A stretch of 32,000 bases of DNA from Candidatus Methanoperedens sp. (GCA_041494705.1 JBGQBI010000001.1:420001-452000), one strand, 5' to 3'. Shown: positions 6,834 through 26,022, numbered from the stretch's first letter. The notes: generated by a model from the sequence alone, not told the origin. Numbers and translations are program-made.

Positions 6834-7304
6834 ATGATTGTTATCGGAATCGACCCCGGGCTTGCGACAGTGGGCTTTGGCGTCATACAAACCGAAAAAA
6901 ACAATATAACTCCTGTAAGCTATGGAGTCATAAGGACATCGGCTGAAAAACAATATCCTGAACGCCTGCTGGAAATATACACCGGGGTCAATGAGCTTTT
7001 TGGAAAATACGTACCTTCAGCGGTGGCGGTTGAAAAACTTTTTTTCAATAAGAATGTTACAAACGCCATGAGCGTGAGCGAAGCAAGGGGCGTTATAGTC
7101 CTGGCGGCAGAGCAAAATCATATACCCGTATTTGAATATACCCCGAACGAAGTTAAGCAGGCAATAACGGGTTCAGGGCGGGCGGATAAGAAACAGATGC
7201 AGGAGATGATTAAGAGGCTGTTGAACTTAGACGAGATACCAAGACCTGATGATGCGGCGGATGGGCTTTCGATTGCTTTATGTCATATAAATATAATGAG
7301 ATAA
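6834..7304 (+). CDS. ruvC: Crossover junction endodeoxyribonuclease RuvC (bacterial type)
   Basis: MIVIGIDPG (Asp7), AVEKLFF (Glu67) and PDDAADGLSIALCH; 156 aa. Confidence 0.9.
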   Translation: MIVIGIDPGLATVGFGVIQTEKNNITPVSYGVIRTSAEKQYPERLLEIYTGVNELFGKYVPSAVAVEKLFFNKNVTNAMSVSEARGVIVLAAEQNHIPVFEYTPNEVKQAITGSGRADKKQMQEMIKRLLNLDEIPRPDDAADGLSIALCHINIMR

Positions 7305-7307
7305 TAG

Positions 7308-7895
7308 ATGATTTCGCATATTTATGGTGAAATAGCGCAGTGCGGTGAAACTTTTGTGATTATCGATGTGGGAGGCATAGGCTATCAGGTGAATGTTACA
7401 AAGCCGGCAGTGCAGGAACTCATCAATAAAAAAGAAAAGGTAAAACTGTACACCCACCTTAATGTCAGGGAGGACGCGCTTACACTCTATGGATTTCTAA
7501 ACGCAAGCGAGCTTACGATGTTCAGGCTCCTTATCAGCGTGACAAGAATAGGGCCCCAAATCGCAATGAACATATTGTCTCAGATAAAAATTGAGGAGCT
7601 TGCGTCTGCAATTTTCCGCGAGGATGAAAAAGTCCTTACCAGTATTTCTGGAGTTGGCACAAAAAATGCCAAAAGGCTGATACTTGAACTCAGGGACAAA
7701 ATGAAAAAGAAAATGGAAGGATTTGTTTTCACGGGTACAAGCAATATTAATTATGACGCCGTTAGCGCTCTTGTTTCTCTCGGATTCGGACAGCGTGAGG
7801 CTCAGGAAGCGGTGGAAGCCTCATCGTCTGATATAAAAGAACGCACAGTTGAAGTATTGATTAAAGCAGCGCTTTTGAAATTGAAAGAACGTTAA
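7308..7895 (+). CDS. ruvA: Holliday junction branch-migration complex subunit RuvA
   Basis: MISHIYGEI...[10 protein letters not shown] is the OB domain and [16 protein letters not shown] is the HhH motif. The C-terminal domain III reads [16 protein letters not shown]. 195 aa. Confidence 0.9.
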
Positions 7896-7900
7896 AGAAC

Positions 7901-8887
7901 ATGGAAGAAAGAATAATAGCGCCGGTGTCGTTAAACGAAGAAAAGGAAGATACAACCATCCGCCCGACAAGGCTTTCTGAATTTATCGGGCAGAATGCAC
8001 TCAAGGATTCGCTAAAAATATTTATCGAAGCTTCAAAAAAAAGGGAAGAACCGCTCGACCACGTCCTTTTCTCAGGACCCCCCGGCCTTGGGAAGACAAC
8101 GCTTGCACACATCATAGCGCACGAGATGGGCTCGGATATAAAAAGCACCTCAGGCCCAGTGCTTGAAAAACCGGGAGACCTTGCAGCAATACTAACGACA
8201 CTCAAGAAGGGAGACATTCTATTCATCGATGAGATTCACCGCCTGAACTCTGTTATTGAAGAAATACTGTATCCTGCAATGGAAGATTTTGAAATAGACG
8301 TCATGATAGGCGAGGGACCAAGCGCCCGCTCCATAAAACTCACACTAGAGCATTTCACCCTCATAGGCGCCACAACCAGGGTAGGACTTCTTGGCTCGCC
8401 ATTCAGGGACAGGTTCGGCTTTATTTCAAGGCTTAACCTGTATTCAGTGCCTGAACTTGTGGAAGTGGTATCACGAAGCGCATCCATCCTGCAAATCCCT
8501 ATGACGCAGGAGGGGTCACTTGAGATTGCCAGGCGAAGCCGCGGGACACCACGCATTGCCAACAGGCTGCTGCGGCGCGTATGGGATTTTGCTCTCGTGA
8601 GGGCAGAGGGGAAAATCATGCAGGATGTTGCGGATGCAGCGCTAACCATGCTGGGAATCGACAGGCTCGGGCTGGATGAGCTTGACAGGCGCATCCTTAC
8701 TATAATTTCAGGGGATTTCGGGGGAGGACCTGTCGGTGTCAAGACAATTGCAATATCAGTCGGCGAAGAGGTCAGGACTATTGAGGAAGTTTACGAGCCC
8801 TACCTTATCCAGATAGGGTTTATCAAACGGACTCCCCAGGGGCGGGAGACAACGCCTGCTGCAAAGGAACATGTGGGAATTGGATAG
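7901..8887 (+). CDS. ruvB: Holliday junction branch-migration ATPase RuvB
   Basis: [11 protein letters not shown], Walker [10 protein letters not shown], Walker B ILFIDEIH, sensor [19 protein letters not shown], and the C-terminal winged helix [15 protein letters not shown]. Confidence 0.95.
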
Positions 8888-10248: not shown

Positions 10249-11817
10249 CTACACCCCCACATCCATCTCCTCATCCGCCCTCACTTCCGGCGCCTCATGC
10301 TTCTCCTCATACTTTCTCTGCGCCTGCCACATCGCCGGGGCATCCTTGCTCCTGCCCTTCGTATCGCTCGTTAGTCTCTTTCTTATCCTCACAAGCGCGG
10401 GCGTATTTATCGCAACGCCTGAAATTATCGCCTGACCTTTCGCCAGGGATGGAAGCTCTGAAATCATGTCCCTGCTTGCAGACTCGATGCTCTGCGCAAT
10501 CTGCTGCTGGTCAGTGGGGTTGATTATCCGCATAGTTATCTGCGTCATGCATTGCGAGAGCGAATCCGCGTCAAGTTTACTCGGGCGCTGGGAAACAAGA
10601 CATACACCCACGCCGAACTTCCTGCCCTCAGAAAGTATGGTCTTGAGGATGCCCTTGGATTTAGCCTCGCCGCTGTGGGGCGCGAACCTGTGCGCCTCCT
10701 CAATGACCACAAACACAGGATAGGGAAGGAACTTGTCCACATGTGATTCATTGTACTTATTGTTCTCAGTCCCCTCACGCGCATCGAATAACCGGCGCAG
10801 CATGACAGAGGCTATCAACTGCTGATCTGTCACTTCGATTCCTGAGACGTCCATAATCGTAAGCTGTCCGACTTTGAAATAATCGGCAAGAGGAATGGTC
10901 TGGAAGTCGTCGAATATAGAGCCGTACAGTTTCCCGAACCGCCACAAGATGCCCTCTATCGTGGACTCATTAGAGGAATCCCGCAGTGCTTCTATCTCCT
11001 GCTTTAATTCATTCCGGGTGAACTTTTTCTTGCTGTTGTTTTTGAGATTGTGATATGCAGACCGGAAGAGCGTCTTCATCTTATCCGACATCGTTCCGTC
11101 GTCCATTATGCTGATAAAATCGCTAACTGAAAGGTCACTTATCCGAATTTTTATAGTCTCAGGTTTCACAGTTTTTACCTTTGGACGATACGATGACGTG
11201 ATGAATTCGGGCATATTCTGTATTTCGCCGAGCGTGGAGTATTCGCCGTGCGGGTCAAAAATCAGGACAGGAGCCATGTTGTAGGGTTTCAGAAGCTCTT
11301 CCACCAGGACTCCCACAGTGTACGATTTTCCCGCACCGGTAGAGGCGATAACCGACACATGCTGGCTTACTATATCCCTCACGGATAACACAATTTCCGT
11401 ATCCTCTCCAAAAACAGTTCCTACAAAGGCAGAGCCTGAGGCACCTGCTTTTACTTTACTGATGTCTTTCAGGACATCTGCTACTGCGCGCTCAATTTTA
11501 GCGCCGCAGGGGGGATTTGTTCTCGGATTAATGAACTCGCCCATCGCCGCATCAAAATAACCGACAACAGCGGCTGAATAAGAGTAGTATTTAAAATCCT
11601 GCGGGTCAAGACCGTAAAACCCTGAAATCTCATTGGCATCAAGTTCATTATCCAGAAGGAACTCCTGTGGATATTGGTTCAGCGGCTCGCCATGTTTTAC
11701 CCTGCACAGGATTTTTTTACCCGCTTCATGATAACATGCGAACATACCGGCAGGCAGCCGCTCACCCGATATGAAGGTGAATCCTTCCTCATCCGAATAG
11801 TTGACAGTCCCGATCAT
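10249..11817 (-). CDS. herA: HerA bipolar DNA helicase/ATPase (FtsK-HerA superfamily)
   Basis: It has an N-terminal barrel-like region, Walker A IASTGAGKSYTVGVL, LIFDPHGEY, Walker B FVVIEEAHRFAP, and GRKFGVGVCLVSQRPSKLD. It is collinear with Sulfolobus HerA as I remember it. Confidence 0.9.
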   Translation of the reverse strand: MIGTVNYSDEEGFTFISGERLPAGMFACYHEAGKKILCRVKHGEPLNQYPQEFLLDNELDANEISGFYGLDPQDFKYYSYSAAVVGYFDAAMGEFINPRTNPPCGAKIERAVADVLKDISKVKAGASGSAFVGTVFGEDTEIVLSVRDIVSQHVSVIASTGAGKSYTVGVLVEELLKPYNMAPVLIFDPHGEYSTLGEIQNMPEFITSSYRPKVKTVKPETIKIRISDLSVSDFISIMDDGTMSDKMKTLFRSAYHNLKNNSKKKFTRNELKQEIEALRDSSNESTIEGILWRFGKLYGSIFDDFQTIPLADYFKVGQLTIMDVSGIEVTDQQLIASVMLRRLFDAREGTENNKYNESHVDKFLPYPVFVVIEEAHRFAPHSGEAKSKGILKTILSEGRKFGVGVCLVSQRPSKLDADSLSQCMTQITMRIINPTDQQQIAQSIESASRDMISELPSLAKGQAIISGVAINTPALVRIRKRLTSDTKGRSKDAPAMWQAQRKYEEKHEAPEVRADEEMDVGV

Positions 11818-12329
11818 GTTTCCCTCTCAATATATTTCCGGACAAGCCTTAACATCGCGCTGCATTCAGGGAATCCTGCCTCAACCTGGCTAACCATGGA
11901 AAGAAGAACGTTACGTGGAAGTGCATCCCGGCTGGCATGAAAATACGCGACACTGGGTTTACCGTTTATGATATGGAATTGCTTTAGTTCTTCAGTTTTC
12001 AAAATATCAATCGTATCCTTCACCTCAGGCGGCGAGTCGATATTGTATTCCACGCTCCCGTTACGTATTACTCCAAGTCCGTGAATGACATAATAGCTGT
12101 TCCTGAAATCTTCATTGAATGGAGCATACTTGGGCTGCATTGAAGGTTCGATATAAGGAATCAGGTCTTCACGTATCGAATGCGTGATGTTTTTAATGAC
12201 CCCGACAATTATTCCCTCATCTTTTTCAATTTTAACGAACCTGCCGATGCGTTCCTTCTGGGCATCCGGCTGTATTTTCACGATATACGTATTCGCATCA
12301 TCAACCCTGATTATGTCTCCTAATACCAT
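11814..12329 (-). CDS. Extra operon member: stand-alone HAS-barrel-like small protein (hypothetical)
   Basis: 171-aa ORF. Its stop overlaps the herA start (ATGA), and its start lies 4 nt after the nurA stop with AAGGTGAT as SD. The N-terminus (LGDIIRVDDANTYIVKIQPD...IGRFVKIEKDEGIIVGVIKNI) follows the beta-barrel pattern seen at HerA N-termini. Confidence 0.7.
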   Translation of the reverse strand: MVLGDIIRVDDANTYIVKIQPDAQKERIGRFVKIEKDEGIIVGVIKNITHSIREDLIPYIEPSMQPKYAPFNEDFRNSYYVIHGLGVIRNGSVEYNIDSPPEVKDTIDILKTEELKQFHIINGKPSVAYFHASRDALPRNVLLSMVSQVEAGFPECSAMLRLVRKYIERET

Positions 12330-12333
12330 TGAA

Positions 12334-13482
12334 TCACCTTCTCATTGTCTTATGGAAATGCTTGGCGCTCTTATTAATCTTAATCCCGTGAGCCTTGCAG
12401 AAATTATCAAACATCCCGTAAAAAAGGTCATGCTCGTTCATCCGTATCACTGCGGCATCATGCGCCCGCATAAGTATATCGGGATAATTGCCCCGGATAA
12501 CACATAGGGCGCGAATGATATCCGCGAGCTTATCGATATCTTCTTTTTCATGTGCCCATGCGGGGAATTCAACACGCGAAGGAAGGCCGTTGCTCAGCCT
12601 CATGTAAAAAAACGCTATGCTATTCTTAAAAGGCCCGTAGTTATCCAGCACAGAGCTTGAAACATCGCCACGCTTGTCATCCCTGTCGCAGAGAAAAGCC
12701 GCTGTCCTTTCTCCCCACAAAAGATGGGAAAAAAGATGCGTATCCGAGAGCTTTGTCTTTTTCAACCCGAAGAGGAAATGCATCATAAGAGTGATGTCGC
12801 GCGGCATTGTGGTATCAATAAAACCGACAACGGTATTGCGTGTTTCCCTGGAAGCCGAGAGTAGCTTCACGATTGCATTGATGTATATCTCCCTGATATT
12901 CCTGTTAAGGACATTTATATGGGACAGGATAAGGGCGCCATCCAGGAGGACATAGAGCTTTTCATGTTCTTTCATTAGCCGTATGATGGTATCGCATTCC
13001 ATTGAAAAACGGCGCGCATCAACATATTCACTCCCGAATGAATACACGCTTGCAGCTTCAAACTCGCCGGGTGTAATGATGGAAGCTCCAGTTTCCTGTT
13101 TATAATCGCTATCGTCGGTATGCCTGTTAAATACGCTTGAGGTCTGGATTACTGCGATAGGAATCTCAAAATTCTTGTCCGAATATATCTGGCTTCCGTC
13201 AACAGCCCCCACTGCAACTCCTGAAAGGACAGAATCCACCCACTCCATCGCTTCGTGGCGGTTTTTCCAGTTAAAAGGAAAAGGATGAATGAGTTTTCCG
13301 GTTTCAAGGAATTTCGCTCCGCTGTATGGGGGAAGCCTTTCATTCATCGAAATATCGATATTCCTGAACTTTGTGAGCTCATTCCTGTACTCTTCTGTCA
13401 GTTCAGAGCGTTCAATATCATAAGAAATTATCGAATCAAGTTTGGCATCAAACTGTAAAGAGATGTTTTTCAGGTCAATCAT
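12334..13482 (-). CDS. nurA: NurA 5'-3' nuclease
   Basis: VGAVDGSQI and YVLLDGALI are NurA-domain catalytic Asp motifs. The 382-aa size and the position next to herA, rad50 and mre11 fit NurA. Confidence 0.8.
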   Translation of the reverse strand: MIDLKNISLQFDAKLDSIISYDIERSELTEEYRNELTKFRNIDISMNERLPPYSGAKFLETGKLIHPFPFNWKNRHEAMEWVDSVLSGVAVGAVDGSQIYSDKNFEIPIAVIQTSSVFNRHTDDSDYKQETGASIITPGEFEAASVYSFGSEYVDARRFSMECDTIIRLMKEHEKLYVLLDGALILSHINVLNRNIREIYINAIVKLLSASRETRNTVVGFIDTTMPRDITLMMHFLFGLKKTKLSDTHLFSHLLWGERTAAFLCDRDDKRGDVSSSVLDNYGPFKNSIAFFYMRLSNGLPSRVEFPAWAHEKEDIDKLADIIRALCVIRGNYPDILMRAHDAAVIRMNEHDLFYGMFDNFCKAHGIKINKSAKHFHKTMRR

Positions 13483-13592
13483 AAAGGGTTACGCCCCTTT
13501 ATGACGTCCCGAGTCACGCCTCGGGAGGGCGTGTTGGGGTATGCTTTGCATACCCCTTCGTTTGACAAAAACCTTCATAAAGTTTTTCATGT
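13479..13592 (-). repeat. Modular hairpin element, short copy, filling the whole rad50-nurA intergenic space
   Basis: 13479..13534 is 56/56 identical to the reverse complement of 18754..18809. It contains a GGGGTATGC-AAA-GCATACCCC hairpin. The termini supply the rad50 TGA and the nurA ATG, and a 33-codon ORF (13489..13590) spans the element. Confidence 0.85.
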
Positions 13593-15896
13593 CACAACCC
13601 TGCTTTCGCCATTGATTTTTTCGATTTTCACAACATGTCCGTATTTTTCATTGAAAGTATCATCATGAGAAATAACGAAAATCTGTTTGAAACCTTTGAT
13701 ATTCATTATCTGCTCCGAGAGGTTCTCTCTTCGTATTTCATCCATATTCTGCGTGGGCTCATCGAGAAACACGAAATCCGAGTTGGAAAGCATCTTAAGA
13801 AGCGCAAGTCGCAGAGCAAGCGCTGCCCCCATTTTCTCGCCTCCGCTTAGCTGCTGGAAATTTTTCTCCTCGCCGCTCTCGGTAATTATTATCCCGTAGT
13901 CCTCGCTCCATCGCAATTCCTGTGAGAAGTCGTCCATGATAGCGCAGTAAAGACCGTTCGCCTCTTCGCTTATCTCACCTATCAACTCAAGAACGATATG
14001 CTGTGCCGAATCCCGCAGTGTCTCGCGGATAAACTTCGCGTATTCACCGAACCTCTTCTCGTTTTCAAGCTTTGCCTCAAATTCACGTATCTTTGCAAGA
14101 TAGCTCATCATTTCAGCTATCTCTTTATCAAGTTTCAGGAACTGGCGGTCTTTTTCTTTTATTTCCACCTCAAAACCGCGAACTTTTGCCCCAAGCTCCA
14201 CGCACTCATGTTCGGCGCCCTCAAGCGCCTTTGCGCTAAAACCTAAAGCCATCCCGTCGTATAGCTTTTGGGATTCTGTAAGTGCTTTCTCTTCCTCAAA
14301 GATTGTTTTTCCAAGCCTCTCGCATTCATTCTTGTATTCCACATACTTTTCTGCAAGCGGCTGGTTCTGCACATATTTCTTGTAGACAGGTTCAAGTTCT
14401 GCGAGCTTTTTCTTCACCTCGCTTGCATCCATATCAAGAGAATTGTATTTTTCAAGCGCAGTTTTAAGTAGTGATGCCTCGCTTTCTTTTTCAGGGATTT
14501 TTTTGATTTCCCCGGATATTTTTTCAACATCCTGCGCACCTTTTTTGGCAAGCAGTTCCAGAGCCTTCATTTTACTTCGCGGGTCGCCCAGAACCTTTAG
14601 TTCTGAGTTCATGGCTTTCAGTGTGTCTTGCGCAGCCCCAAGTCTTTTCTGCGCGTCCGCAAGCTGCTCCCTGAAATATGAAGAGAAATCCGCCACTGTG
14701 CTGCACCTTATCCCTTTTATCACAGGGCAAAGGTTCTCAGTGCCGGCGATGCTCATCCTGCCTTTAATATCCTTAATCTCATTGAGCGCGACAGCATGTT
14801 CCCCTTTTATGGTTTCAAGCTTCTCTTCAAGCTCATCCTGCTTTTCCAATAGGGGTATGAGAGCCGTCTTTTCACAAGCGTTCTTTTCTATCTCGGCTTT
14901 CAACGCCTCAAGACTCATGCGTTTTTCATTCAATCCTGCAAGCTCATTTTTAATCCCGTTTAACCTGTCCTTCAGCACATCACGTTCTTTTCGCATGCCC
15001 TCAAGCTTTTCCTGCTTCTTTCTCTCTTCTTCGTATCTTTCTTTATCTGCCAAAAGTGCGGATACGGTCTTCTGTGCTTCTTCGGATTTCTTAAGCTCGT
15101 CTTTTGACTTTTCAAGAAGCTGCTTCAATCCCTCTATTTTTATGCGACCCTGCTTTATCTCATTTTCAAGCTTATCCATCGCATCCTTCTGCTTTTTGAG
15201 CGCATCCCGCCTGCCCTTAGCTACCTTCAGGGTCTCGCTGCACTCCTTCAGGATTTTCTTTATGCTCTCAATGGTCCTGTTAAGTTCATCCCTCTCAATC
15301 TTTTTTTGCTCATAATTCTCTGTCCTGATGCGCAGTTTCTCGATGTCATTCTCTATGCTCCTGACACCTTCATCTATCAGGCTCATCGCGTTCCTGAGAT
15401 TCTCGTAGGCATTCCTGTACTCGTCAACCTTGAGTATCTCATCGAATGTCTTTCTTCTCTTCGTTGGGGTATCCATGAATGCTGCCGTCAGCATGCCCTG
15501 CGGCACTCCAATAGTGTTTTCAAAAATATGCGGCAACTCATCTTCAGTGGATACAGGGAATATGTTGCTGATGAGCCAGGAGAGAACGTCTTTTTTGCCT
15601 GTGATATGGAGATTCTCTCCCTCGACACTGTATTCTCCACCGAGTTTTCTTGTAAGTATGTAAGTCAAATTATTTGCGAGAACTTCAACAGAAACCATAC
15701 CTGATTTTTCCCCGCGGCGCAGGAAGTCCGCATCTTTGTAGGGCAGGTAGTCAAACAGGACGTATCCGATTGCTTCGAGGATGGTGGTTTTCCCGTGCCC
15801 GTTCTGGCCGCAGATGCCGTTTATGCCCTCCTTGAACTCGATGGTTGCATGACGGTAGGATTTGATGTTTTTTAATTCCACGGATTTGATAAGCAT
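13587..15896 (-). CDS. rad50: Rad50 ATPase (SMC-like), short coiled coil, non-canonical hook
   Basis: Walker A GQNGHGKTT, a long Glu/Lys-rich coiled coil, signature LSGGEKMGAALALRLAL, Walker B FVFLDEPTQNMD, and H-loop ISHDD. The start abuts the mre11 stop. Confidence 0.9.
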   Translation of the reverse strand: MLIKSVELKNIKSYRHATIEFKEGINGICGQNGHGKTTILEAIGYVLFDYLPYKDADFLRRGEKSGMVSVEVLANNLTYILTRKLGGEYSVEGENLHITGKKDVLSWLISNIFPVSTEDELPHIFENTIGVPQGMLTAAFMDTPTKRRKTFDEILKVDEYRNAYENLRNAMSLIDEGVRSIENDIEKLRIRTENYEQKKIERDELNRTIESIKKILKECSETLKVAKGRRDALKKQKDAMDKLENEIKQGRIKIEGLKQLLEKSKDELKKSEEAQKTVSALLADKERYEEERKKQEKLEGMRKERDVLKDRLNGIKNELAGLNEKRMSLEALKAEIEKNACEKTALIPLLEKQDELEEKLETIKGEHAVALNEIKDIKGRMSIAGTENLCPVIKGIRCSTVADFSSYFREQLADAQKRLGAAQDTLKAMNSELKVLGDPRSKMKALELLAKKGAQDVEKISGEIKKIPEKESEASLLKTALEKYNSLDMDASEVKKKLAELEPVYKKYVQNQPLAEKYVEYKNECERLGKTIFEEEKALTESQKLYDGMALGFSAKALEGAEHECVELGAKVRGFEVEIKEKDRQFLKLDKEIAEMMSYLAKIREFEAKLENEKRFGEYAKFIRETLRDSAQHIVLELIGEISEEANGLYCAIMDDFSQELRWSEDYGIIITESGEEKNFQQLSGGEKMGAALALRLALLKMLSNSDFVFLDEPTQNMDEIRRENLSEQIMNIKGFKQIFVISHDDTFNEKYGHVVKIEKINGESRVVT

Positions 15897-17192
15897 TTAT
15901 TCCCCCATGCGTGAAAGTAAGGTCTGTTGGGGATTTTCCGTCTTATCTGTCCTGGTATTATTTTCTGAGGCACCGCTTTTTATTTTCGCAAAGCTCCATC
16001 TCAATTCTTTAAGGACTGAGTTCACTTCGACATTCGCAGCAGCCATCTTTTTCACTTCGACCATTATCTTTACGACATCATCCACATTATCCCTGTACCT
16101 CCCGTCAAGTTTTATCCGGTCTGAGAATACACGAAGCTCTATCTGCTCGCGCGTGAGCCCGCGCACGTCCCCCTCTTTGATGGCATACGGCGAATTTGTC
16201 CGCTGGAGCTTGACCTCGGACCAAAGGGGTTTAAATTGTTCGATGAGCATATCCCTGATGCGCTCCAGGTTCACATCGGATTTCGGGAAGTTCATCTCTC
16301 CATAGAGCATAAGTTCGACAAGCGGTGCCTTATCTGATTGGACTGTGGTCTCTCTTTCGATTTTTGCGTTGACTTTTGAATAAAGGTCTTCGGGAGTGGC
16401 AATATCGCTCATATCAAGCCTGATGCGCCTGACGGGACGGGTAATGGGGGATATGAGTTTCGCACCATTATCCCTGACATGATAGAACCCTTTTGGCAGG
16501 TCGTACTCGTTCAAGGACATCATTTCAATGCTGCCGGGGTTGAAAACCCATTCATCAAGTTCATATTGCGTATGATAATGCCCGAGCGCAAGGTAATTCA
16601 CTGTTTCCTTCAGAGGGAGGAGAGAATTGTATGGAATTTCCCCCGCAACTTCCTGCTTTACCTGTCCTTCCATGCCAAAGTGCATCATAAGGATGGTGAA
16701 TTTTTCTCCCCTTTCTGCATTTATTTTTTTTATCTCATCAGCTATCTCTGGGATTATGGAAGCTGTGCTTGCGCCAAGGTATTTCACCCCGAAGATGCGG
16801 AAATTATCCAGCTCGACGAAGTCGCCCATCAGTTTCACACCATTGGCTTCTTTCAGCCTTATGAGCCGGAGCAGCCCCTGTGAATTGAGTATCTCAAGCC
16901 AGCTCTTGCCGTCCTGGTGGAAGGCGAGGTCGTGGTTCCCTTCGATGGCATAGACCGCAGTGGCAGGGCTTTTCGCTTTCAGTTCAGAGAGAACCTTATA
17001 CGCCTGCTCATATGTGGGCGCGTTTATGTTCCGTTTGTGGAACAGGTCGCCTGAGATGAGGATGAACTCGACTTTGTGGTCGATGGCGTATGTTATGACT
17101 GAATGGAAGGCGCGGGCGTAGTCGCGGAAGCGCTCGATGAGTCCGTACTGGGCATATCCGAGGTGGAAGTCGCTCGCGTGCAGGAAGTTCAT
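15897..17192 (-). CDS. mre11: Mre11 nuclease (calcineurin-like phosphoesterase)
   Basis: FLHASDFHLG, SGDLFH, IEGNHD, MMHFG and LGHYH are phosphoesterase motifs I-V. It lies directly upstream of rad50. Confidence 0.9.
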   Translation of the reverse strand: MNFLHASDFHLGYAQYGLIERFRDYARAFHSVITYAIDHKVEFILISGDLFHKRNINAPTYEQAYKVLSELKAKSPATAVYAIEGNHDLAFHQDGKSWLEILNSQGLLRLIRLKEANGVKLMGDFVELDNFRIFGVKYLGASTASIIPEIADEIKKINAERGEKFTILMMHFGMEGQVKQEVAGEIPYNSLLPLKETVNYLALGHYHTQYELDEWVFNPGSIEMMSLNEYDLPKGFYHVRDNGAKLISPITRPVRRIRLDMSDIATPEDLYSKVNAKIERETTVQSDKAPLVELMLYGEMNFPKSDVNLERIRDMLIEQFKPLWSEVKLQRTNSPYAIKEGDVRGLTREQIELRVFSDRIKLDGRYRDNVDDVVKIMVEVKKMAAANVEVNSVLKELRWSFAKIKSGASENNTRTDKTENPQQTLLSRMGE

Positions 17193-17280
17193 GGGTAGTT
17201 AAAAGGGCGTCAGGGTTAAAAATGGTTGTGGGAGCGGGGTGAAAGTGATGGTTTTGTTAGACAGGTCTGATATTAATAGT
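17185..17280 (-). repeat. Copy A of the duplicated mre11 promoter/5'UTR/first 8 nt
   Basis: It aligns with 18143..18237 at 80 of 96 positions (hand alignment, 1 gap). It includes the ATGAACTT of mre11, an identical GAGCGGGGTGAAAGT core and a TATA-like CTGATATTAATAGT. Confidence 0.8.
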
Positions 17281-17282
17281 CA

Positions 17283-18125
17283 TTATTTCAACTTCCTGGT
17301 TTCTTTTTTCCCTGTGATACTGATATAATTCTCTGAGCTTACCACTTTTCTTCCTGTTTTCTTCTCAAGTTCCTTTCTTGCATTTCCTGCAATCATGCCT
17401 CCCTCTTTTGAAGAGTCGAAACACTCATTGAATCCTTTTGAGTCCCTGGATTTAGTGATTTCTGTAGTAGATTTTTCCCCGAGCATGGTGAAAATCAATT
17501 CCAGGTCGTTCATATGGTCTCTCAGGTTCTGGTTTTTATTCATCGGGTCTAAGCTTTTTATTTTTCTATGTTCCTTGATTGACTTCCCGAAAATCGCTTT
17601 AGAAATCTCATTTGTAAGGATGGCAAAATCTCTTTTTTCGTCAACTCCTCTTTCTTTCCATTCATCCGTAAGTTCCTGCCTGATAGCAATCCCCCGCAGC
17701 CTTTTTTCTATCCAGTCTTCTGGATAACCTTTGAGTTCGTAATACTCTTTTGCCCTATCCTGCGCCAGTTCGGGATTTTCTATTTCCTGTATCCTTTCGT
17801 ATCCTACTTTTGCCAGCCATCTTTTGAAGGGTTCAGCTTTTTTTGAAGGGATGGACTGGATTATCCGGAACATTGATTCGGTGTTTGCGCAATCTGTTTC
17901 GTATTTTTTGCCGTCGGATGATGGCAATTTCAGTTGTACCCAAATTGGGGACAACTCAAGTTGTTTAAATTCCCTGTCCTTGAGTTTGCCCCAGTATTGT
18001 CGTGGCGTTGGACTATCTGTTAAAGCTTCCACAACATCAACAACCGAGAAATACCACTGGTTATCATGCCATGTTCGTCGTATTTTAGCTCCTTCGAAAA
18101 CTATCAGTGCGTCTTTTGAATCCAT
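17283..18125 (-). CDS. Bro-N domain protein with DinD-like C-terminal region (DNA-damage-inducible protein D family-like)
   Basis: The N-terminus (FEGAKIRRTWHDNQWYFSVVDVVEALT...YW) matches the Bro-N pattern. The C-terminal half (RDFAILTNEI...NQNLRDHMNDLELIFTMLGE...GNARKELEKKTG) parallels E. coli DinD as I recall it. Confidence 0.65.
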   Translation of the reverse strand: MDSKDALIVFEGAKIRRTWHDNQWYFSVVDVVEALTDSPTPRQYWGKLKDREFKQLELSPIWVQLKLPSSDGKKYETDCANTESMFRIIQSIPSKKAEPFKRWLAKVGYERIQEIENPELAQDRAKEYYELKGYPEDWIEKRLRGIAIRQELTDEWKERGVDEKRDFAILTNEISKAIFGKSIKEHRKIKSLDPMNKNQNLRDHMNDLELIFTMLGEKSTTEITKSRDSKGFNECFDSSKEGGMIAGNARKELEKKTGRKVVSSENYISITGKKETRKLK

Positions 18126-18142: not shown

Positions 18143-18237
18143 AAGTTCATGGATAGTAAAGAGGGCGTTATGGTTAAAAAGGGTTAGGAGAGCGGGGTGA
18201 AAGTAATGTTTTTGTGAGATATCTCTGATATTATAGT
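18143..18237 (-). repeat. Copy B of the duplicated mre11 promoter/5'UTR/first 8 nt, now driving the Bro-N/DinD-like gene
   Basis: See copy A. The minus-strand sense ends ATGAACTTTAACAAGGGGAAATAAC-ATG. This is a 7-codon mre11-derived mini-ORF (MNFNKGK*) followed 1 nt later by the Bro-N gene ATG. Confidence 0.8.
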
Positions 18238-18368: not shown

Positions 18369-18512
18369 ATGGACATACGGCAGTGTAAGAAAGGCTGTGT
18401 GGAATGCACGCCATGTGAAGATTGCGGAGCGCCTCAGTTCAATATAAATGTGGTATGTGGAAGCTGCTTAGGTTGCGAGACCCCGCACGTCGAAATGTAC
18501 GAGTGGAAATAG
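18369..18512 (+). CDS. Small cysteine-rich protein (47 aa, 8 Cys), not in the ORF track
   Basis: Hand translation gives MDIRQCKKGCVECTPCEDCGAPQFNINVVCGSCLGCETPHVEMYEWK*. The Cys spacing is Cx3Cx2Cx2Cx2C...Cx2Cx2C. An AT-rich TATA-like TTTTTAGTATAAT sits about 20-30 nt upstream of the ATG, consistent with a leaderless transcript. Confidence 0.4.
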   Translation: MDIRQCKKGCVECTPCEDCGAPQFNINVVCGSCLGCETPHVEMYEWK

Positions 18513-18562
18513 CTGGTATTTCATATTCGATTTCCAATCGATAGTCCTTAGAGCAGGCTACC

Positions 18563-18572
18563 TTTAATATAC
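18563..18572 (+). promoter_or_regulatory. TATA-box candidate for the trmY leader transcript
   Basis: TTTAATATAC is centred about 26 nt upstream of 18593. That position is the first ATG of the hairpin element, so a leaderless transcript is possible. Confidence 0.3.
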
Positions 18573-18590
18573 GTCACGACTTTTTTGCTC

Positions 18591-18809
18591 ACATGAAAAA
18601 CTTTAAGAAAGGTTTATCAAAAACTGTTGCGTCAGTTTACACCGCGAACACGTATGGCTTCGCCATACGTAAACCTTTAAGAAAGGTTTATCAAACGACA
18701 GGTATGCTTTGCATACCTGAACACCACGTAAACCGGGGTATCGGTTTACGTGGACACGCCCTCCCGAGGCGTGACTCGGGACGTCATAAAGGGGCGTAAC
18801 CCTTTATGA
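18591..18809 (+). repeat. Modular hairpin element, long copy, immediately upstream of and including the trmY start codon
   Basis: At least five perfect stem-loops, starting at 18650, 18670, 18699, 18725 and 18784. A 21-nt direct repeat CTTTAAGAAAGGTTTATCAAA occurs at 18601 and 18675. The 3' 56 nt are identical to the nurA-proximal copy. The tracked 68-aa ORF 18593..18799 lies wholly inside the element. Confidence 0.85.
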
Positions 18810-19390
18810 AAGACTTCATAATTATCGGTCATAAAGCAGTTACAGCTCCCTTTTCCCTGAATGACCTTCCCGGCGCAGCGGGACGCATGGACATCCTGTG
18901 CAGGTGTGTTAATGCCGCGCTATTTCTTTCCCATGACTTAAGAAGAGATATCCGCGTGTATCTTATCCTCAAGGGAGAACCTGCTCCGCCGAAGCTCATC
19001 CGTTTTGACGGCCTCGCAGTCAGGTATTTGAGCCCTGATGAGAGAAGCGCAGCCTCGCTTATAAAAAAAGCCCTTGAGAAGAATGCGCAGGACTTCTGGA
19101 CAGAATCCATGCCCGGGGTGAGCATCAGGAAAGGTGATTTTGGCGACCTTTTGAGTGAACTGAACAAGAAAATAACCTATCTGAGGGAAGACGGCGAGGA
19201 TGTGCGGGGAAAGAGCTTCGAAGAGCCATTGTTCGTTCTTGGCGACCATCTTGGCATGACCGATGATGAGGAGAAATTAATCGAGGGATATAAGAATGAG
19301 GTGGTGAGCGTGGGACCCCTTTCTCTGCATGCCGACCACTGCATCACCATATTGCATAATGAGATGGACAGGGTAGAGAAACATATTTAG
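18806..19390 (+). CDS. trmY: tRNA (pseudouridine54-N1)-methyltransferase TrmY (SPOUT, DUF358)
   Basis: FIIIGHKA...DLPGAAGRMDILCRCVNAALFLSH, then LGDHLGMT, then SLHADHCITILHNEMD, matching the TrmY family pattern. It sits adjacent to pus10. Confidence 0.8.
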   Translation: MKDFIIIGHKAVTAPFSLNDLPGAAGRMDILCRCVNAALFLSHDLRRDIRVYLILKGEPAPPKLIRFDGLAVRYLSPDERSAASLIKKALEKNAQDFWTESMPGVSIRKGDFGDLLSELNKKITYLREDGEDVRGKSFEEPLFVLGDHLGMTDDEEKLIEGYKNEVVSVGPLSLHADHCITILHNEMDRVEKHI

Positions 19391-23933: not shown

Positions 23934-24386
23934 TTAGATGCCAGTGGTTTTAGGGATGGCGATGGTTCCTCTTTTATTCCATGAAGGGCTGAATTTTTCT
24001 ATAAGAGTGTATTCTAATCCCCTAACTAAATCGATTTTCAAATTTTCATAATTATAGTTATTTGGTGGTTTAAGGGCATATATTTCAACTATCTTTCCTT
24101 GCTCCAAACATTTTTTAATTTTTTTAATAATTTCTAAACTGGTTCCAGTATTATTTTTTTGGTGGCTGGCTCTAGATGTGTATTTTTTCATGCGCTTATC
24201 CAAAGTTCTATTTTGACTGTCGCAAATGCCGATATATTCGATGATGTCATCGACAACAAAACAATAAATAACACGCTCATCTTTAAATCGACTCAAAATT
24301 GTTTCAACGCCACTAACGTATCTTCTTCCATTTAGTTGGCATCTTCCAGCTTTAATAAAGCCGTGTTTTATTAATTCACTATTCAT
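23934..24386 (-). CDS. GIY-YIG domain nuclease-like protein
   Basis: VIYCFVVDDIIEYIGICDSQNRTLDKRMKKY matches the GIY-(10-11)-YIG...R...Y pattern. A distal LEYTLIEKFSPSWN provides the Glu and Asn. The gene is strongly AT-rich. Confidence 0.6.
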   Translation of the reverse strand: MNSELIKHGFIKAGRCQLNGRRYVSGVETILSRFKDERVIYCFVVDDIIEYIGICDSQNRTLDKRMKKYTSRASHQKNNTGTSLEIIKKIKKCLEQGKIVEIYALKPPNNYNYENLKIDLVRGLEYTLIEKFSPSWNKRGTIAIPKTTGI

Positions 24387-24415
24387 AACTTCTTTACTCC
24401 AGATTATTCAATCTA

Positions 24416-24525
24416 GTGGAAAAGTATATAAATATTTTGTTTTATGTGGAAAAAATTTAAAATTAATTTGCTCATTGATATTGATAAGTGGAAAAAAAGC
24501 AAAGATATAAATATTTAGTGGAAAT
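24416..24525 (+). promoter_or_regulatory. Divergent promoter region with four phased GTGGAAA boxes flanking two TATA elements
   Basis: GTGGAAA(A/T) starts at 24416, 24446, 24488 and 24518, giving spacings of 30, 42 and 30 nt. ATATAAATATT(T) occurs at 24426..24437 and 24505..24516, each bracketed by a box pair. Confidence 0.55.
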
Positions 24526-24539
24526 AATAGTAAAAATAT

Positions 24540-24848
24540 ATGATGCAAATAAATCTAACTGGAGAAGTTGAAAAAACACTTCCTTTATTACGAAAAGTAG
24601 CGATATTGTATTTTAACAAGAAGGGCTACAAAACAAAAGAAAAAATTGGGAAAATGATTACTCCATTATTTGGGGAGAAAAATCCTCATGATAAAGAACT
24701 AGGATGGTTGCATTATTATACGGATTTCCTATGTGAAAATGGTCTTATGAGGAGAATAGAAAAATCAGGCGAAAAAGAACATGAATTTGAGCTAACAAAT
24801 GAAGGAATAAAGATTTTAGATATTTTGACTAAATTGAAAAAAATGTAA
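24540..24848 (+). CDS. Small putative winged-helix DNA-binding protein
   Basis: 102 aa. LCENGLMRRIEKSGEKEHEFELTNEGIKIL resembles a recognition helix plus wing of MarR/PadR-like wHTH proteins. It is divergent from the GIY-YIG gene. The assignment is weak. Confidence 0.4.
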   Translation: MMQINLTGEVEKTLPLLRKVAILYFNKKGYKTKEKIGKMITPLFGEKNPHDKELGWLHYYTDFLCENGLMRRIEKSGEKEHEFELTNEGIKILDILTKLKKM

Positions 24849-24851
24849 TAA

Positions 24852-24885
24852 TTTTTTTTGGTAGAAGTTTTTTCTGTTTTTTATT
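24852..24885 (+). terminator. Oligo-T termination tracts
   Basis: T8, T6 and T6 runs lie directly after the stop of 24540..24848. Oligo-T tracts are the archaeal intrinsic termination signal. Confidence 0.4.
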
Positions 24886-24915
24886 TTCACTACAACCGAA
24901 CCATAGCAGCCATAT

Positions 24916-26022
24916 TCATCCAAGCACCTTCTCCATCACCCCAATCGCCCTTCTCAAATTCCCCTCAGAAACTGCATACGAAATCCTGATATGCCCCTTC
25001 CCGTTCTCCCCGAAAGCCGAGCCCGGAGTAACAATCACGCCTTTTTCCAGCAATTTCTGCGGCGCATCCTTATCCGCAACCTCAGGGAATGCATAGAAAG
25101 CCCCCTGCGGCTTAACGCATTTAATACCCATTGAAGCAAATCCGGAAAGTAAGATATCCCTTCTTGCCCTGAAACTCTCGCGCATCTCGCTCACGCACTC
25201 CTGCGGCCCCACAATCGCAGCCAGCGCCGCCTTCTGGGCGATTGAGTTGGCGCATGCCTGGATGTACTGGTGCACTTTCAGCATCTGCTCGATATATTCA
25301 TTCCTCGCGGCGGCATAACCGATGCGCCAGCCTGTCATGGCGTACGTCTTTGAGACTGCGTTGATTGTAATTACTTTATCAGTGAACTGCGCCGGGCTTA
25401 CATGCTCGCCCTCGTAGATGAAATGCTCATAAACCTCGTCTGAGATTATCGTAATATCATTGTCCTCCGCTATCCCTGCCAGCGCTTTAATCTCCTTTTT
25501 TGTCTGGACAGTCCCTGTGGGATTTGAAGGGGAATTGATAATCAATGCAACGGTTTTAGAAGTAATGGATTCGTTCACGGCTTCAGGCGTTAATGTCAGC
25601 GCTTCGCCAAGAGGTATGCCCACCACCTTTCCCCCCGCAATCTTTGTTAATGGCGCGTAGGATACAAATCCCGGGTCAGGTACCAGAACCTCATCACCGT
25701 TATCTACCAGTGATTGCAGCGCCAGGTGAAGCGCTTCAGAGGCGCCCGATGTGACGATAATTTCGTTTGGCTCGACTGTAAAATGGTTCTCACGCTCAAA
25801 TTTCCTGCACAGGGCTTCCCGAAGCTCGGGAATCCCGAGGTTTGCGGTATAGCCTGTGAAACCTTGATTTATTGCATCAACTGCCGCTTTTTTAATATGT
25901 TCAGGTGTGTCGAAATCAGGCTGGCCCAGCCCGAGATTGATGGCGTTCGGACCCGCGCCTTCAAACATCTTCCTGATACCAGAGATGTCAATACTCTTTA
26001 CGCGTTGCGAAAACATGAGCAT
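24916..26022 (-). CDS. Pyridoxal-phosphate-dependent aminotransferase, class I/II (aspartate aminotransferase-like)
   Basis: INSPSNPTG, SDEVYE, and SKTYAMTGWRIGY with the PLP lysine. The ATG at 26022 overlaps the upstream stop (TGATG). Alternative starts are GTG 26025 and ATG 26016. Confidence 0.85.
   Translation of the reverse strand: MLMFSQRVKSIDISGIRKMFEGAGPNAINLGLGQPDFDTPEHIKKAAVDAINQGFTGYTANLGIPELREALCRKFERENHFTVEPNEIIVTSGASEALHLALQSLVDNGDEVLVPDPGFVSYAPLTKIAGGKVVGIPLGEALTLTPEAVNESITSKTVALIINSPSNPTGTVQTKKEIKALAGIAEDNDITIISDEVYEHFIYEGEHVSPAQFTDKVITINAVSKTYAMTGWRIGYAAARNEYIEQMLKVHQYIQACANSIAQKAALAAIVGPQECVSEMRESFRARRDILLSGFASMGIKCVKPQGAFYAFPEVADKDAPQKLLEKGVIVTPGSAFGENGKGHIRISYAVSEGNLRRAIGVMEKVLG

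What the first reader, a model, noticed from the sequence alone, without database searches (positions are those of the whole stretch)
18591..18809. Expanded second copy of the same hairpin element, again ending exactly on a start codon (trmY), with covariation and a frame-preserving 105-nt size difference
18754..18809 is 56/56 identical to the reverse complement of 13479..13534, so both copies have the same orientation relative to the downstream gene. Both place that gene's ATG in the CCCTTTATGA stem arm, and both begin ACATGAAAAACTTTA. This copy adds several modules. It has perfect stem-loops at 18650-18670 (9 bp), 18670-18690 (9 bp) and 18725-18752 (11 bp). It also has a 21-nt direct repeat at 18601 and 18675. 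The shared middle hairpin differs by compensatory changes: GGGGTATGC-AAA-GCATACCCC versus CAGGTATGC-TTT-GCATACCTG. That argues for selection on structure. The open frame is kept in both copies (33 versus 68 codons, a difference of 105 nt), both ending HALPRRDSGRHKGA*. A TATA-like TTTAATATAC about 26 nt upstream of 18593 would make this ORF leaderless. The architecture resembles bacterial REP/BIME mosaics, but here it is fused to translation starts of unrelated genes. I do not recognise it as a described archaeal element.
Basis: partly seen in the sequence, partly recalled or inferred. Interest (0 to 1): 0.7.

Follow-up and report, generated by a model that had tools for sequence, protein, structure and literature searches.

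The report
Start-codon-homing hairpin mosaic mobile element
The two hairpin-rich stretches are copies of a small mobile DNA element, so far found only in Methanoperedens archaea, that inserts exactly at ATGA start codons, rebuilds the start codon at its far end, and keeps a stop-free reading frame that probably passes ribosomes on to the displaced gene.

Summary
It is not a two-locus duplication. A 21-mer from the shared block hit 28 loci, all in Candidatus Methanoperedens MAGs. All 30 copies, counting the two in the window, end ...GGGGCGTAACCCTTT-ATGA; 26 of the 30 ATGs open an ORF of at least 100 aa. Complete copies begin (A/G)TGA-AAAACTTTAAGAAAG.

Close relatives have clean empty sites at three loci. 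At trmY a TATA box lies about 21 nt upstream of a single ATGA. At an hdr operon there is one ATGA stop/start overlap. The third is rad50/nurA. Filled sites equal the empty site plus the element plus a second ATGA, and tandem copies share one ATGA. It is therefore a non-autonomous mobile element.

The reading frame from the left ATG is open in 33 of 34 copies. It stops either at a TAA 6 nt before the rebuilt ATG or at the TGA of ATGA. These are two frames of the same block, giving different peptides. The frame-preserving idea is therefore replaced by a relay for termination-reinitiation, which is inferred and not shown.

The hairpins covary with strict Watson-Crick pairs and no G-U, which points to constraint on DNA. 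The mobilising enzyme is unknown. I found no published description.

The parts
18593..18809 (+). Copy B: the complete element, including both bounding ATGA tetranucleotides (213 nt from the left ATG to the right ATG)
   Evidence: Relatives L036-L039 lack this stretch and carry a single ATGA at the site.
18593..18596 (+). Left ATGA. This is the ancestral trmY start codon and now starts the relay ORF.
   Evidence: Alignment of empty and filled sites. The TATA-like box lies about 21 nt upstream.
18563..18572 (+). TATA-like box TTTAATATAC of the trmY promoter. It belongs to the host, not to the element.
   Evidence: Conserved at the same distance from the single ATGA in the empty sites of L036-L039.
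18594..18619 (+). Left terminal hairpin TGAAAAACTTT-AAG-AAAGGTTTATCA. The TGA of the ATGA pairs with TCA.
   Evidence: MFE fold. The motif is conserved as the left end of all complete copies.
18621..18638 (+). Hairpin module AAACTG-ttgcgt-CAGTTT
18650..18670 (+). Hairpin module ACGTATGGC-ttc-GCCATACGT (GTATG class)
18671..18751 (+). 81-nt internal segment of three hairpins (18671-18689, 18699-18719, 18724-18753). It is absent from the otherwise 99.3% identical trmY copy in L004 and is flanked by TACGT on both sides.
   Evidence: Comparison of W+ with L004. The same segment recurs in L006, L009(-) and L011(-).
18754..18809 (+). 56-nt 3' block. It contains hairpin TCCCGAG-gcgtga-CTCGGGA (18762-18781) and terminal hairpin TCATAAAGGG-gcgtaa-CCCTTTATGA (18784-18809, -14.0 kcal/mol). 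The terminal hairpin holds the relay stop TAA in its loop and the trmY ATG in its 3' arm.
   Evidence: The last 19 nt are identical in 29 of the 30 copies.
18593..18799 (+). Relay ORF: 68 codons plus TAA, ending 6 nt before the trmY ATG
18806..19390 (+). trmY (PF04013). Its start codon is the right-hand ATGA.
   Evidence: E = 1.8e-66. Orthologues begin at the same Met.
13479..13590 (-). Copy A: the complete element (108 nt from ATG to ATG) between rad50 and nurA. Its hairpins are at 13587-13567, 13556-13536, 13526-13507 and 13505-13478.
   Evidence: The site is empty in L034 and L035, holds a minimal 48-nt copy in L033, and holds tandem double copies in L030-L032.
13587..13590 (-). Left ATGA of copy A. 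Its TGA is the rad50 stop codon and its ATG starts the relay ORF.
   Evidence: the upstream ORF of 769 codons ends here
13489..13590 (-). Relay ORF of copy A: 33 codons plus TAA
12334..13482 (-). nurA (PF09376). It starts on the right-hand ATGA of copy A.

Best explanation
Both stretches are copies of a non-autonomous mobile DNA element found only in Candidatus Methanoperedens. The element is a one-directional string of short, perfect hairpin modules. It runs from a left hairpin (AAAACTTT-AAG-AAAGTTTT) to a right hairpin (TCATAAAGGG-GCGTAA-CCCTTTATGA).

Shown: it integrates at the tetranucleotide ATGA on the sense strand of a gene start. That ATGA is either the start of a gene whose TATA box lies about 21 nt upstream (trmY) or an ATGA stop/start overlap inside an operon (rad50/nurA, hdr). 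The integrated element has ATGA at both borders, so the gene's start codon is rebuilt at the far end and a new target is created. This explains the tandem copies.

Shown as a sequence pattern; the function is inferred: the frame opened by the left ATG carries essentially no stop codon through the element. It ends either at a TAA in the loop of the right hairpin, 6 nt before the rebuilt ATG, or at the TGA of ATGA. I infer that this relay ORF carries ribosomes from the old start, or from the upstream gene's stop, through the hairpins. It would melt the -14 kcal/mol hairpin that hides the real start codon and allow termination-reinitiation there. Insertions would then not silence the host gene.

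Inferred, weakest step: mobilisation is in trans by an enzyme that acts on single-stranded DNA, of the IS200/IS605 or RAYT (HUH) kind. The tetranucleotide would be recognised by pairing with the complementary TCAT at the 5' foot of the right hairpin.
For: Family and host range. The 21-mer CTCGGGACGTCATAAAGGGGC hit 28 loci, all in Methanoperedens MAGs, 12 of them in one MAG. There were no hits in four scans of viral contigs.

Borders. All 30 copies end ...CCCTTT-ATGA, and 26 of the 30 ATGs open an ORF of at least 100 aa (the exceptions are 28 aa, 44 aa, and two cut short by a contig end). Of the 28 copies with a visible left end, 26 begin ATGA and 2 begin GTGA.

Empty sites.
- trmY is filled in the window, L004 and L014. 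It is empty, with a single ATGA and the same TATA box, in L036-L039 (TrmY 80-92% identical).
- The hdr operon is filled in L007. L053 and L054 (HdrA-like protein 96% and 92% identical) are empty and show a plain ATGA overlap.
- rad50/nurA is filled in the window, L029-L033 and L038. It is empty in L034 and L035.

Tandem copies share one ATGA in L030, L031 and L032.

Relay ORF. It is open to the junction in 33 of 34 copies. Element lengths are 0 mod 3 (TAA at -9) or 2 mod 3 (TGA at +1), and only L024 falls in the third frame. In 28 distinct interiors there is 1 stop in 898 codons in the ATG frame, against 24 in 897 and 25 in 883 in the other two frames. The two usable frames give different peptides (...HALPRRDSGRHKGA and ...TPSRGVTRDVIKGRNPL), so openness is conserved and the peptide is not.

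Distance rule. In Haloferax volcanii, reinitiation efficiency falls 40-60% at a gap of 13-14 nt and is abolished at 22-23 nt (PMC10666635). The element's two used frames give -4 and +6 nt. The avoided frame gives 31 nt.

Start-codon enrichment. In 139 kb of related loci, 61 of 127 called genes start with ATGA, and there are 134 fully intergenic ATGA sites. Starts are therefore 31% of the non-genic ATGA sites, whereas at least 16 of 18 independent canonical loci are at gene starts.

DNA-level hairpins. In 22 variants, 6 of 9 pairs covary and there are no G-U pairs.

Turnover. Elements at orthologous loci are 98-99% identical where their modules match, while flanking third codon positions are only 60-72% identical.
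Against: - No transposase or autonomous partner was found. None occurs in the window.
- The left end does not follow the IS608 layout, because there is no room for a guide between the ATGA and the left hairpin.
- Sequence alone cannot separate a 4-bp target-site duplication from insertion 3' of ATGA by an element that itself ends in ATGA.
- The canonical copies were found with a probe that lies next to the ATGA, which biases that sample.
- In the sample seeded on an internal hairpin, 12 distinct arrays were recovered. Four sit at ATGA gene starts, one ends in ATGA before a short ORF, five are not ATGA-ended, one lies in frame inside a gene, and one is cut by a contig end. One of the start-associated arrays (L041) has its relay ORF closed after four codons.
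- Copies share modules and some are orthologous, so the frame statistics are not based on independent events.
- No transcript or ribosome data were available.
- All relatives are MAG contigs, and several break inside the element.
Confidence: 0.72

Rival explanations
1. It is a purely selfish MITE-like element whose open frame is incidental. The hairpin modules simply happen to lack stops in the frames used, and downstream genes are translated independently of the relay ORF.
For: The 3' block is a single sequence, so its two open frames count as one observation. Modules are shared between copies, so the counts are not independent. One start-associated array (L041) has a relay ORF closed after four codons. 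No expression data exist.
Against: In the same sequences there is 1 stop in the ATG frame against 24 and 25 in the other two frames. Length classes avoid the one frame whose stop lies 31 nt upstream (1 of 34). The decayed copy in L038 still keeps a 60-codon open frame. The rebuilt AUG is buried in a -14 kcal/mol hairpin and there is no well-placed Shine-Dalgarno sequence (sequence).
Confidence: 0.15
2. It is a host cis-regulatory RNA leader, that is, a structured 5' leader or uORF attenuator recruited to co-regulate the downstream genes.
For: The fold is strong (z = -9.0 and -6.6). The start codon is sequestered in a hairpin. A uORF ends at the start codon.
Against: Downstream genes are unrelated: trmY, nurA, hdrA-like, methionine aminopeptidase-like and others. 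Close relatives lack the element at the same genes. Rfam gives no match even at E <= 1. The antisense strand folds almost as well (z = -7.7). The stems contain no G-U pairs. The peptide is not conserved.
Confidence: 0.07
3. The mobile element is the same, but it is moved by a classical double-strand (DDE-type) transposase or a site-specific recombinase that makes a true 4-bp ATGA duplication, and not by a single-strand HUH enzyme.
For: Identical ATGA on both sides is what a target-site duplication looks like. Sequence-specific 4-bp duplications are known, for example TTAA for piggyBac (my own knowledge). No HUH gene was found.
Against: There are no terminal inverted repeats. The first 11 nt of the left end and the reverse complement of the right end match at only 7 positions, and both terminal hairpins point the same way (sequence). 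Orientation is strictly strand-specific. The hairpins are perfect palindromes without G-U, as expected for folded DNA.
Confidence: 0.25
4. It is a family of small protein-coding genes (MKNFKK...) that sit upstream of other genes.
For: Gene callers report the ORFs (65 aa in L029, 60 aa in L038). An exhaustive search found 21 representative proteins.
Against: The same DNA block is read in two frames that give unrelated C-termini. Lengths range from 13 to 122 codons depending on module content. There are no Pfam hits. Of the 21 representatives, 19 are small ORFs of 46-122 aa and the two long ones look spurious (one checked).
Confidence: 0.03

Closest known systems
IS200/IS605-family elements and their non-autonomous derivatives (PATEs), with IS608 as the paradigm (PMC3201880)
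   Same: There are no terminal inverted repeats. Both ends carry hairpins in the same orientation. Insertion is strictly strand-specific and lies immediately 3' of a fixed tetranucleotide, which stays at the left border. At the right end, four bases at the 5' foot of the hairpin (TCAT) are complementary to the tetranucleotide 3' of it (ATGA), like the guide and cleavage-site pair of IS608.
   Different: In IS608 the left and right cleavage sites differ (TTAC and TCAA) and lie 19 and 10 nt from the hairpins. Here both are ATGA and abut the hairpins. No TnpA or TnpB partner was found. The body is a mosaic of many hairpins. The target coincides with start codons.
REP/BIME mosaics of bacteria and their RAYT transposases (PMC3333891, PMC3733652)
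   Same: The element is a variable mosaic of short palindromic units. It is multi-copy and species-restricted. The stems covary. It sits inside transcription units.
   Different: REPs lie mostly downstream of genes, pair in inverted orientation and carry an unpaired GTAG or CGTC tag. Here the modules run in one direction, the arrays sit on start codons, and they are bounded by ATGA. CGTC does precede the canonical terminal hairpin, but it is absent from the alternative terminal hairpins. REPs have been described in bacteria (PMC3733652 reports eight phyla, listing only bacterial ones); I did not check that paper's remarks on archaea.
Rickettsia palindromic elements (RPE), as reviewed in PMC10969869
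   Same: They are palindromic, non-autonomous elements that are compatible with translation. One related array (81 nt, L049) sits in frame inside an N6/N4 DNA methylase gene without breaking it.
   Different: RPEs fuse into the host protein. Most copies here instead end their own frame with a stop and hand over to a rebuilt start codon. I made no sequence comparison with RPEs. The host domain differs.
Native ATGA-overlapping gene pairs coupled by termination-reinitiation (PMC6728339, PMC10666635)
   Same: The stop of the relay ORF overlaps the next start as ATGA or lies 6 nt before it. Both distances are within the range where reinitiation works in Haloferax volcanii.
   Different: Here the upstream 'gene' is a mobile insert with no conserved product. 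Coupling has not been measured in Methanoperedens.

Membership tests
Classical MITE (derived from a DDE transposon) | Terminal inverted repeats | tested here: not met
   The left end AAAACTTTAAG and the reverse complement of the right end AAAGGGTTACG match at 7 of 11 positions. Both terminal hairpins have the same polarity.
Classical MITE (derived from a DDE transposon) | Fixed-length direct repeat of the target at both borders | tested here: met
   ATGA lies on both sides, and the empty sites have one ATGA. In 2 of the 28 copies with a visible left end, the left repeat reads GTGA.
Classical MITE (derived from a DDE transposon) | Small, non-coding for a transposase, multi-copy, with insertion polymorphism | tested here: met
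   Copies are 48-269 nt. At least 28 loci were found, 12 in one MAG. Three loci have both filled and empty alleles.
Classical MITE (derived from a DDE transposon) | An autonomous parent element with the same ends | not testable with these tools
   Whole Methanoperedens genomes could not be scanned for the two ends flanking a gene. None occurs in the sampled loci.
IS200/IS605-type single-strand element (PATE) | Subterminal hairpins at both ends, no inverted repeats, strand-specific | tested here: met
   All copies have the orientation of the downstream gene.
IS200/IS605-type single-strand element (PATE) | Insertion 3' of a specific tetra- or pentanucleotide without duplication | tested here: inconclusive
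   ATGA is always at the left border, which fits. The element also ends in ATGA, so a duplication cannot be told apart from an element-borne ATGA.
IS200/IS605-type single-strand element (PATE) | Cleavage site recognised by a complementary guide 5' of the hairpin foot | tested here: inconclusive
   At the right end, TCAT and ATGA are perfectly complementary in the canonical subfamily, in L040 and in L038. Alternative terminal hairpins match at only 2-3 of 4 positions. The left end has no room for a separate guide.
IS200/IS605-type single-strand element (PATE) | Cognate Y1 (HUH) transposase | tested here: inconclusive
The sample covers only the flanks of non-autonomous copies.
REP/BIME | Unpaired GTAG or CGTC tag at one end of each palindrome | tested here: not met
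   CGTC precedes only the canonical terminal hairpin (GGGA-CGTC-ATAAAGGG...). The other modules and the alternative terminal hairpins lack it.
REP/BIME | Extragenic position, mostly downstream of genes, with units paired in inverted orientation | tested here: not met
   Canonical copies sit on start codons, and the modules follow one another in a single orientation.
Rickettsia palindromic elements | In-frame insertion inside protein-coding genes that adds a peptide segment | tested here: inconclusive
   One related array does this (L049: 27 aa inside PF01555; 46.8 bits with the insert and 51.1 bits without it). The two window copies and the canonical subfamily do not.
Termination-reinitiation coupled ORF pair (a mechanism, not a family) | The stop of the upstream ORF overlaps the downstream start or lies within a few nt of it | tested here: met
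   The distance is -4 nt or +6 nt in 33 of 34 copies. The published limits are a 40-60% loss at 13-14 nt and no reinitiation at 22-23 nt.
Termination-reinitiation coupled ORF pair (a mechanism, not a family) | Downstream translation depends on upstream translation | not testable with these tools
   This needs a reporter assay or Ribo-seq.
Rfam RNA families | Match to a curated covariance model | tested here: not met
   There were 0 matches at gathering score over the whole window and 0 matches at E <= 1 over 18540-18860.

The most novel reading that the evidence does not exclude
This would be a previously undescribed class of archaeal single-strand (HUH-type) mobile element with two properties. 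First, it reads its target, the start-codon tetranucleotide ATGA, by base pairing with a guide (TCAT) in its own terminal hairpin. Second, it is 'translationally transparent': it carries a relay reading frame and rebuilds the start codon, so it can colonise the first codon of essential genes and operon junctions without silencing them, and it can stack in tandem.
Probability: 0.3. Interest if true: 0.85.

Novelty: new variant of a known kind. Interest (0 to 1): 0.7.

Why it matters
If the model holds, four things follow.

1. It shows a way for selfish DNA to live on start codons, the one place in a compact genome where insertions should be most harmful. The element would do this by exploiting termination-reinitiation. 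It therefore provides natural constructs, differing in relay length and frame, for testing translational coupling and leaderless initiation in archaea.

2. Its ATGA specificity, if it is set by the complementary TCAT, would be a second natural case of base-pair-programmed transposon targeting after IS608.

3. There are practical consequences. The relay ORFs are annotated as hypothetical proteins of 33-122 aa. Several MAG contigs end inside the element (L001, L003, L011, L012, L029, L030, L045), so it fragments Methanoperedens assemblies. Insertion polymorphisms could serve as strain markers.

4. Methanoperedens is a key anaerobic methane oxidiser, and its mobile-element repertoire is under active study.

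Tried and rejected
- Rfam at gathering score on the window and at E <= 1 on the element gave nothing.
- Four scans of viral contigs with the right end, two internal hairpins and the left end gave nothing.
- An exhaustive protein search with the 68-aa relay peptide found only 21 representatives. Nineteen are small ORFs. The two long hits look spurious; the one I inspected (P0251, 1072 aa) is a repetitive, eukaryote-like protein. There was no transposase fusion.
- A search for a Y1 transposase in 478 kb of sampled loci found nothing.
- Terminal inverted repeats are not present.
- There is no target preference beyond ATGA. Nothing is conserved upstream, and downstream there is only the A-richness typical of second codons.
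- I rejected 'frame-preserving indels' as the rule, because 17 of the 34 complete copies have lengths of 2 mod 3.
- I rejected 'always abuts a start codon' for the wider family after the scan seeded on an internal hairpin.
- I considered that the module differences are all nested insertions. The indels are flanked by short direct repeats (TACGT, ACACG, AAGGGG). At least the 48-nt L033 copy is better explained by a microhomology deletion, so the direction of change is unresolved.
- Literature searches for a prior description (Methanoperedens with MITE, palindromic, hairpin or transposase; MITEs with start codons) found none.

Full report
**Observation**

- 18754-18809 is the exact reverse complement of 13479-13534, and the similarity continues at 90% over 73 nt.
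- Both copies start ACATGAAAAACTTTA and end CCCTTTATGA on the ATG of the next gene.
- Pfam identifies the downstream genes as trmY (18806-19390, PF04013) and nurA (12334-13482 on the minus strand, PF09376). Copy A lies between rad50 (13587-15896) and nurA inside an mre11-rad50-nurA-herA cluster.
- The three stem-loops, the internal direct repeat, the 33- and 68-codon ORFs and the TATA-like box are at the stated coordinates.
- Copy B folds into eight consecutive hairpins (-94.5 kcal/mol, z = -9.0). Copy A folds at -51.8 kcal/mol (z = -6.6). The antisense strand folds almost as well (z = -7.7).
- Rfam has no match.

**It is a dispersed family**

An exact 21-mer from the shared block hit 28 loci in the species-representative genome collection. 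All were Candidatus Methanoperedens MAGs, and 12 came from one MAG. Four scans of viral contigs found nothing. NurA and TrmY of the window are 95% and 92% identical to Methanoperedens proteins, so the window comes from that genus.

All 30 copies end ...GGGGCGTAACCCTTT-ATGA followed by unique sequence. In 26 of the 30, that ATG opens an ORF of at least 100 aa; in L003 and L015 it opens only 28 and 44 aa, and in L016 and L017 the ORF is cut by the contig end (52 and 487 aa seen). The 28 copies with a visible left end begin (A/G)TGA-AAAACTTTAAGAAAG(G/T)TTTATCAAA. Lengths from ATG to ATG run from 48 to 269 nt, because different hairpin modules lie between a constant left hairpin and a constant right block.

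**It is mobile**

Three loci have both filled and empty alleles in relatives.
- trmY. The window, L004 and L014 carry the element. L037, L038, L036 and L039 (TrmY 92%, 86%, 88% and 80% identical) read ...TTTAATATA-(21 nt)-ATGA-AAGA..., with one ATGA and no element.
- An hdr operon. L007 carries the element between a CCG-domain gene and an hdrA-like gene. L053 and L054 (96% and 92% identical) show a plain ATGA stop/start overlap.
- rad50/nurA. The site is filled in the window, L029, L033 and L038. In L030, L031 and L032 it holds two complete elements head to tail that share one ATGA. It is empty in the more distant L034 and L035, where the start reads GTGC or ATGC.

In each case the filled allele equals the empty allele plus the element plus a second ATGA. 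In 12 of the 28 copies with a visible left end, the left TGA is also the stop of a long upstream ORF (63-769 codons). The other 16 are not preceded by such an ORF, and about half of them have a TATA-like box 22-37 nt upstream.

**Enrichment at start codons**

In 139 kb of related loci with called genes, 61 of 127 genes start with ATGA. There are 134 fully intergenic ATGA sites on either strand and 1484 inside genes. Starts therefore make up about 31% of the sites where an insertion would not break a gene. At least 16 of about 18 independent canonical loci are at starts, which gives a binomial probability of order 1e-6. No target conservation is visible beyond ATGA, apart from A-rich second codons.

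There is a caveat. The canonical copies were found with a probe that lies next to the ATGA. A scan seeded on an internal hairpin (GGGGTATGCAAAGCATACCCCA, metagenome contigs) returned 12 distinct arrays:
- four at ATGA gene starts, with alternative terminal hairpins such as TCATAAAGCGA-GGTT-TCGCTTTATGA;
- one that ends in ATGA before a short ORF;
- five that do not end in ATGA and lie in intergenic DNA or near the 3' ends of genes;
- one 81-nt array in frame inside an N6/N4 DNA methylase gene;
- one cut by a contig end.

The start-codon association therefore belongs to arrays that keep a ...TTT-ATGA terminal hairpin, and not to every relative.

**The reading frame**

Among 34 complete canonical copies, lengths are 0 mod 3 or 2 mod 3, and only L024 is 1 mod 3.
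- In the first class the frame from the left ATG ends at TAA, 6 nt before the rebuilt ATG (TAA CCC TTT ATG). That TAA lies in the loop of the terminal hairpin.
- In the second class it ends at the TGA of ATGA.
- In the third frame the block has a TGA 31 nt upstream.

In 28 distinct interiors the ATG frame has 1 stop in 898 codons, against 24 in 897 and 25 in 883 in the other two frames. The same 3' block is read in two frames that give unrelated C-termini. What is conserved is an open path that ends at the start codon, and not a peptide.

In Haloferax volcanii, termination-reinitiation works at overlaps and very short gaps, its efficiency falls 40-60% at 13-14 nt and it is abolished at 22-23 nt (PMC10666635; PMC6728339). 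The element's two used frames give -4 and +6 nt, and the avoided one gives 31 nt. The rebuilt AUG sits in the 3' arm of a -14.0 kcal/mol hairpin.

I infer that a ribosome translating the relay ORF opens this hairpin and reinitiates at the real start. Insertions that break the relay would then be removed by selection on the host gene. This step is inference, because no transcript or ribosome data were available. The counts are also not fully independent, because modules are shared between copies.

**The hairpins**

In 22 variants of the GTATG hairpin class, 6 of 9 pairs carry compensatory two-sided changes and 99% of cells are paired. None of 500 shuffles reached the observed covariation score, and no pair changed on one side only, so there are no G-U pairs. 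The variants were harvested from predicted hairpins, which favours paired cells.

The complete absence of G-U fits constraint on folded DNA or on a palindromic duplex better than constraint on an RNA leader.

Elements at orthologous loci are 98-99% identical where their modules match, while third codon positions of the flanking genes are 60-72% identical. Module content also differs between orthologous copies. The window's trmY copy has an extra 81 nt flanked by TACGT relative to L004. L014 lacks a 25-nt hairpin flanked by ACACG. L033 is a 48-nt remnant joined at AAGGGG. This pattern indicates recent activity, re-insertion or gene conversion, together with microhomology deletions.

**Mobilisation**

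No transposase is encoded in the window. The relay peptide is not fused to any. None was found in 478 kb of sampled flanks, although that test was weak.

Several features resemble IS200/IS605-type single-strand elements as described for IS608 (PMC3201880):
- there are no inverted repeats;
- polarity is strict;
- both ends carry hairpins in direct orientation;
- a fixed tetranucleotide sits flush with the left end;
- TCAT and ATGA are complementary around the right hairpin;
- the hairpins are perfect at the DNA level.

The geometry differs, however, and the identical ATGA on both sides is equally what a 4-bp target duplication would give. I put the HUH reading at about 0.3.

**Comparison and novelty**

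The element works partly like four known things: a PATE or REP (hairpin-based and non-autonomous), a BIME (mosaic), an RPE (compatible with translation), and a native ATGA-coupled gene pair. It fails defining features of classical MITEs (no inverted repeats) and of REP/BIME (no consistent tag, wrong position, one orientation). Searches of the open literature, including a 2024 review of prokaryotic MITEs, found no element that targets start codons and rebuilds them, and none described in Methanoperedens.

I rate it a new variant of a known kind, namely small non-autonomous palindromic mobile elements. It has an unusual and testable strategy.

Noticed in passing
window 17185-17275 and 18143-18233: A 91-nt direct repeat (84% identical) brackets the Bro-N domain gene (17283-18125, minus strand). 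The first copy contains the mre11 start. L038 has no Bro-N gene and only one copy of this sequence, so the Bro-N gene looks like a cassette inserted upstream of mre11 with duplication of the mre11 5' region.
   Followed up: partly
window 18369-18512 (+): A 47-aa ORF with eight cysteines (MDIRQCKKGCVECTPCEDCGAPQFNINVVCGSCLGCETPHVEMYEWK) is conserved upstream of trmY in L037 and L038. It is probably a real small metal-binding protein gene.
   Followed up: partly
window 6834-8887 (+): Bacterial-type ruvC, ruvA and ruvB genes sit in this archaeal genome a few kb from the herA-nurA-rad50-mre11 cluster. A RuvB homologue is also present near the cluster in L038.
   Followed up: no
window 10249-12329 (-): HerA is encoded as two adjacent ORFs: a 171-aa ORF with a HAS-barrel domain and a 522-aa ORF with the DUF87 ATPase domain. 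The same split (171-173 aa plus 520-538 aa) occurs in seven of the eight relatives examined (L029-L033, L035, L038); L034 lacks both ORFs. It is therefore a conserved arrangement and not a frameshift.
   Followed up: partly
L049 1096-1671: An 81-nt three-hairpin array of the same family is inserted in frame inside an N6/N4 DNA methylase gene. It is bounded by TCA on both sides and adds 27 residues. Removing them raises the Pfam score from 46.8 to 51.1 bits.
   Followed up: yes
L007 around 6818: The hdrA-like gene downstream of the element has an in-frame TAA at codon 631, where 1017-1025-aa homologues have Glu (...KEMTELYDGKK...). This is a nonsense mutation or a sequencing error in that MAG.
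   Followed up: partly
L001, L003, L011, L012, L029, L030, L045 (contig ends): Seven contigs from different assemblies end inside a copy of the element, so the repeat appears to break Methanoperedens MAG assemblies.
   Followed up: no
L031, L033-L036, L038, L039 (139 kb): 61 of 127 called genes (48%) begin with ATGA, so the element's target is unusually common at gene starts in this genus.
   Followed up: partly
window 24001-25000: There is a sharp drop in G+C to 0.30, against 0.38-0.52 elsewhere. It spans ORFs 23934-24386 (minus strand, no Pfam hit) and 24540-24848. This may be foreign DNA.
   Followed up: no
L003 7600-7890 (-) and L043: Some arrays continue into a different repeat type (for example CCGTGTCATC(C/T)GTGTTC...), which suggests further related repeat families in these genomes.
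   Followed up: no
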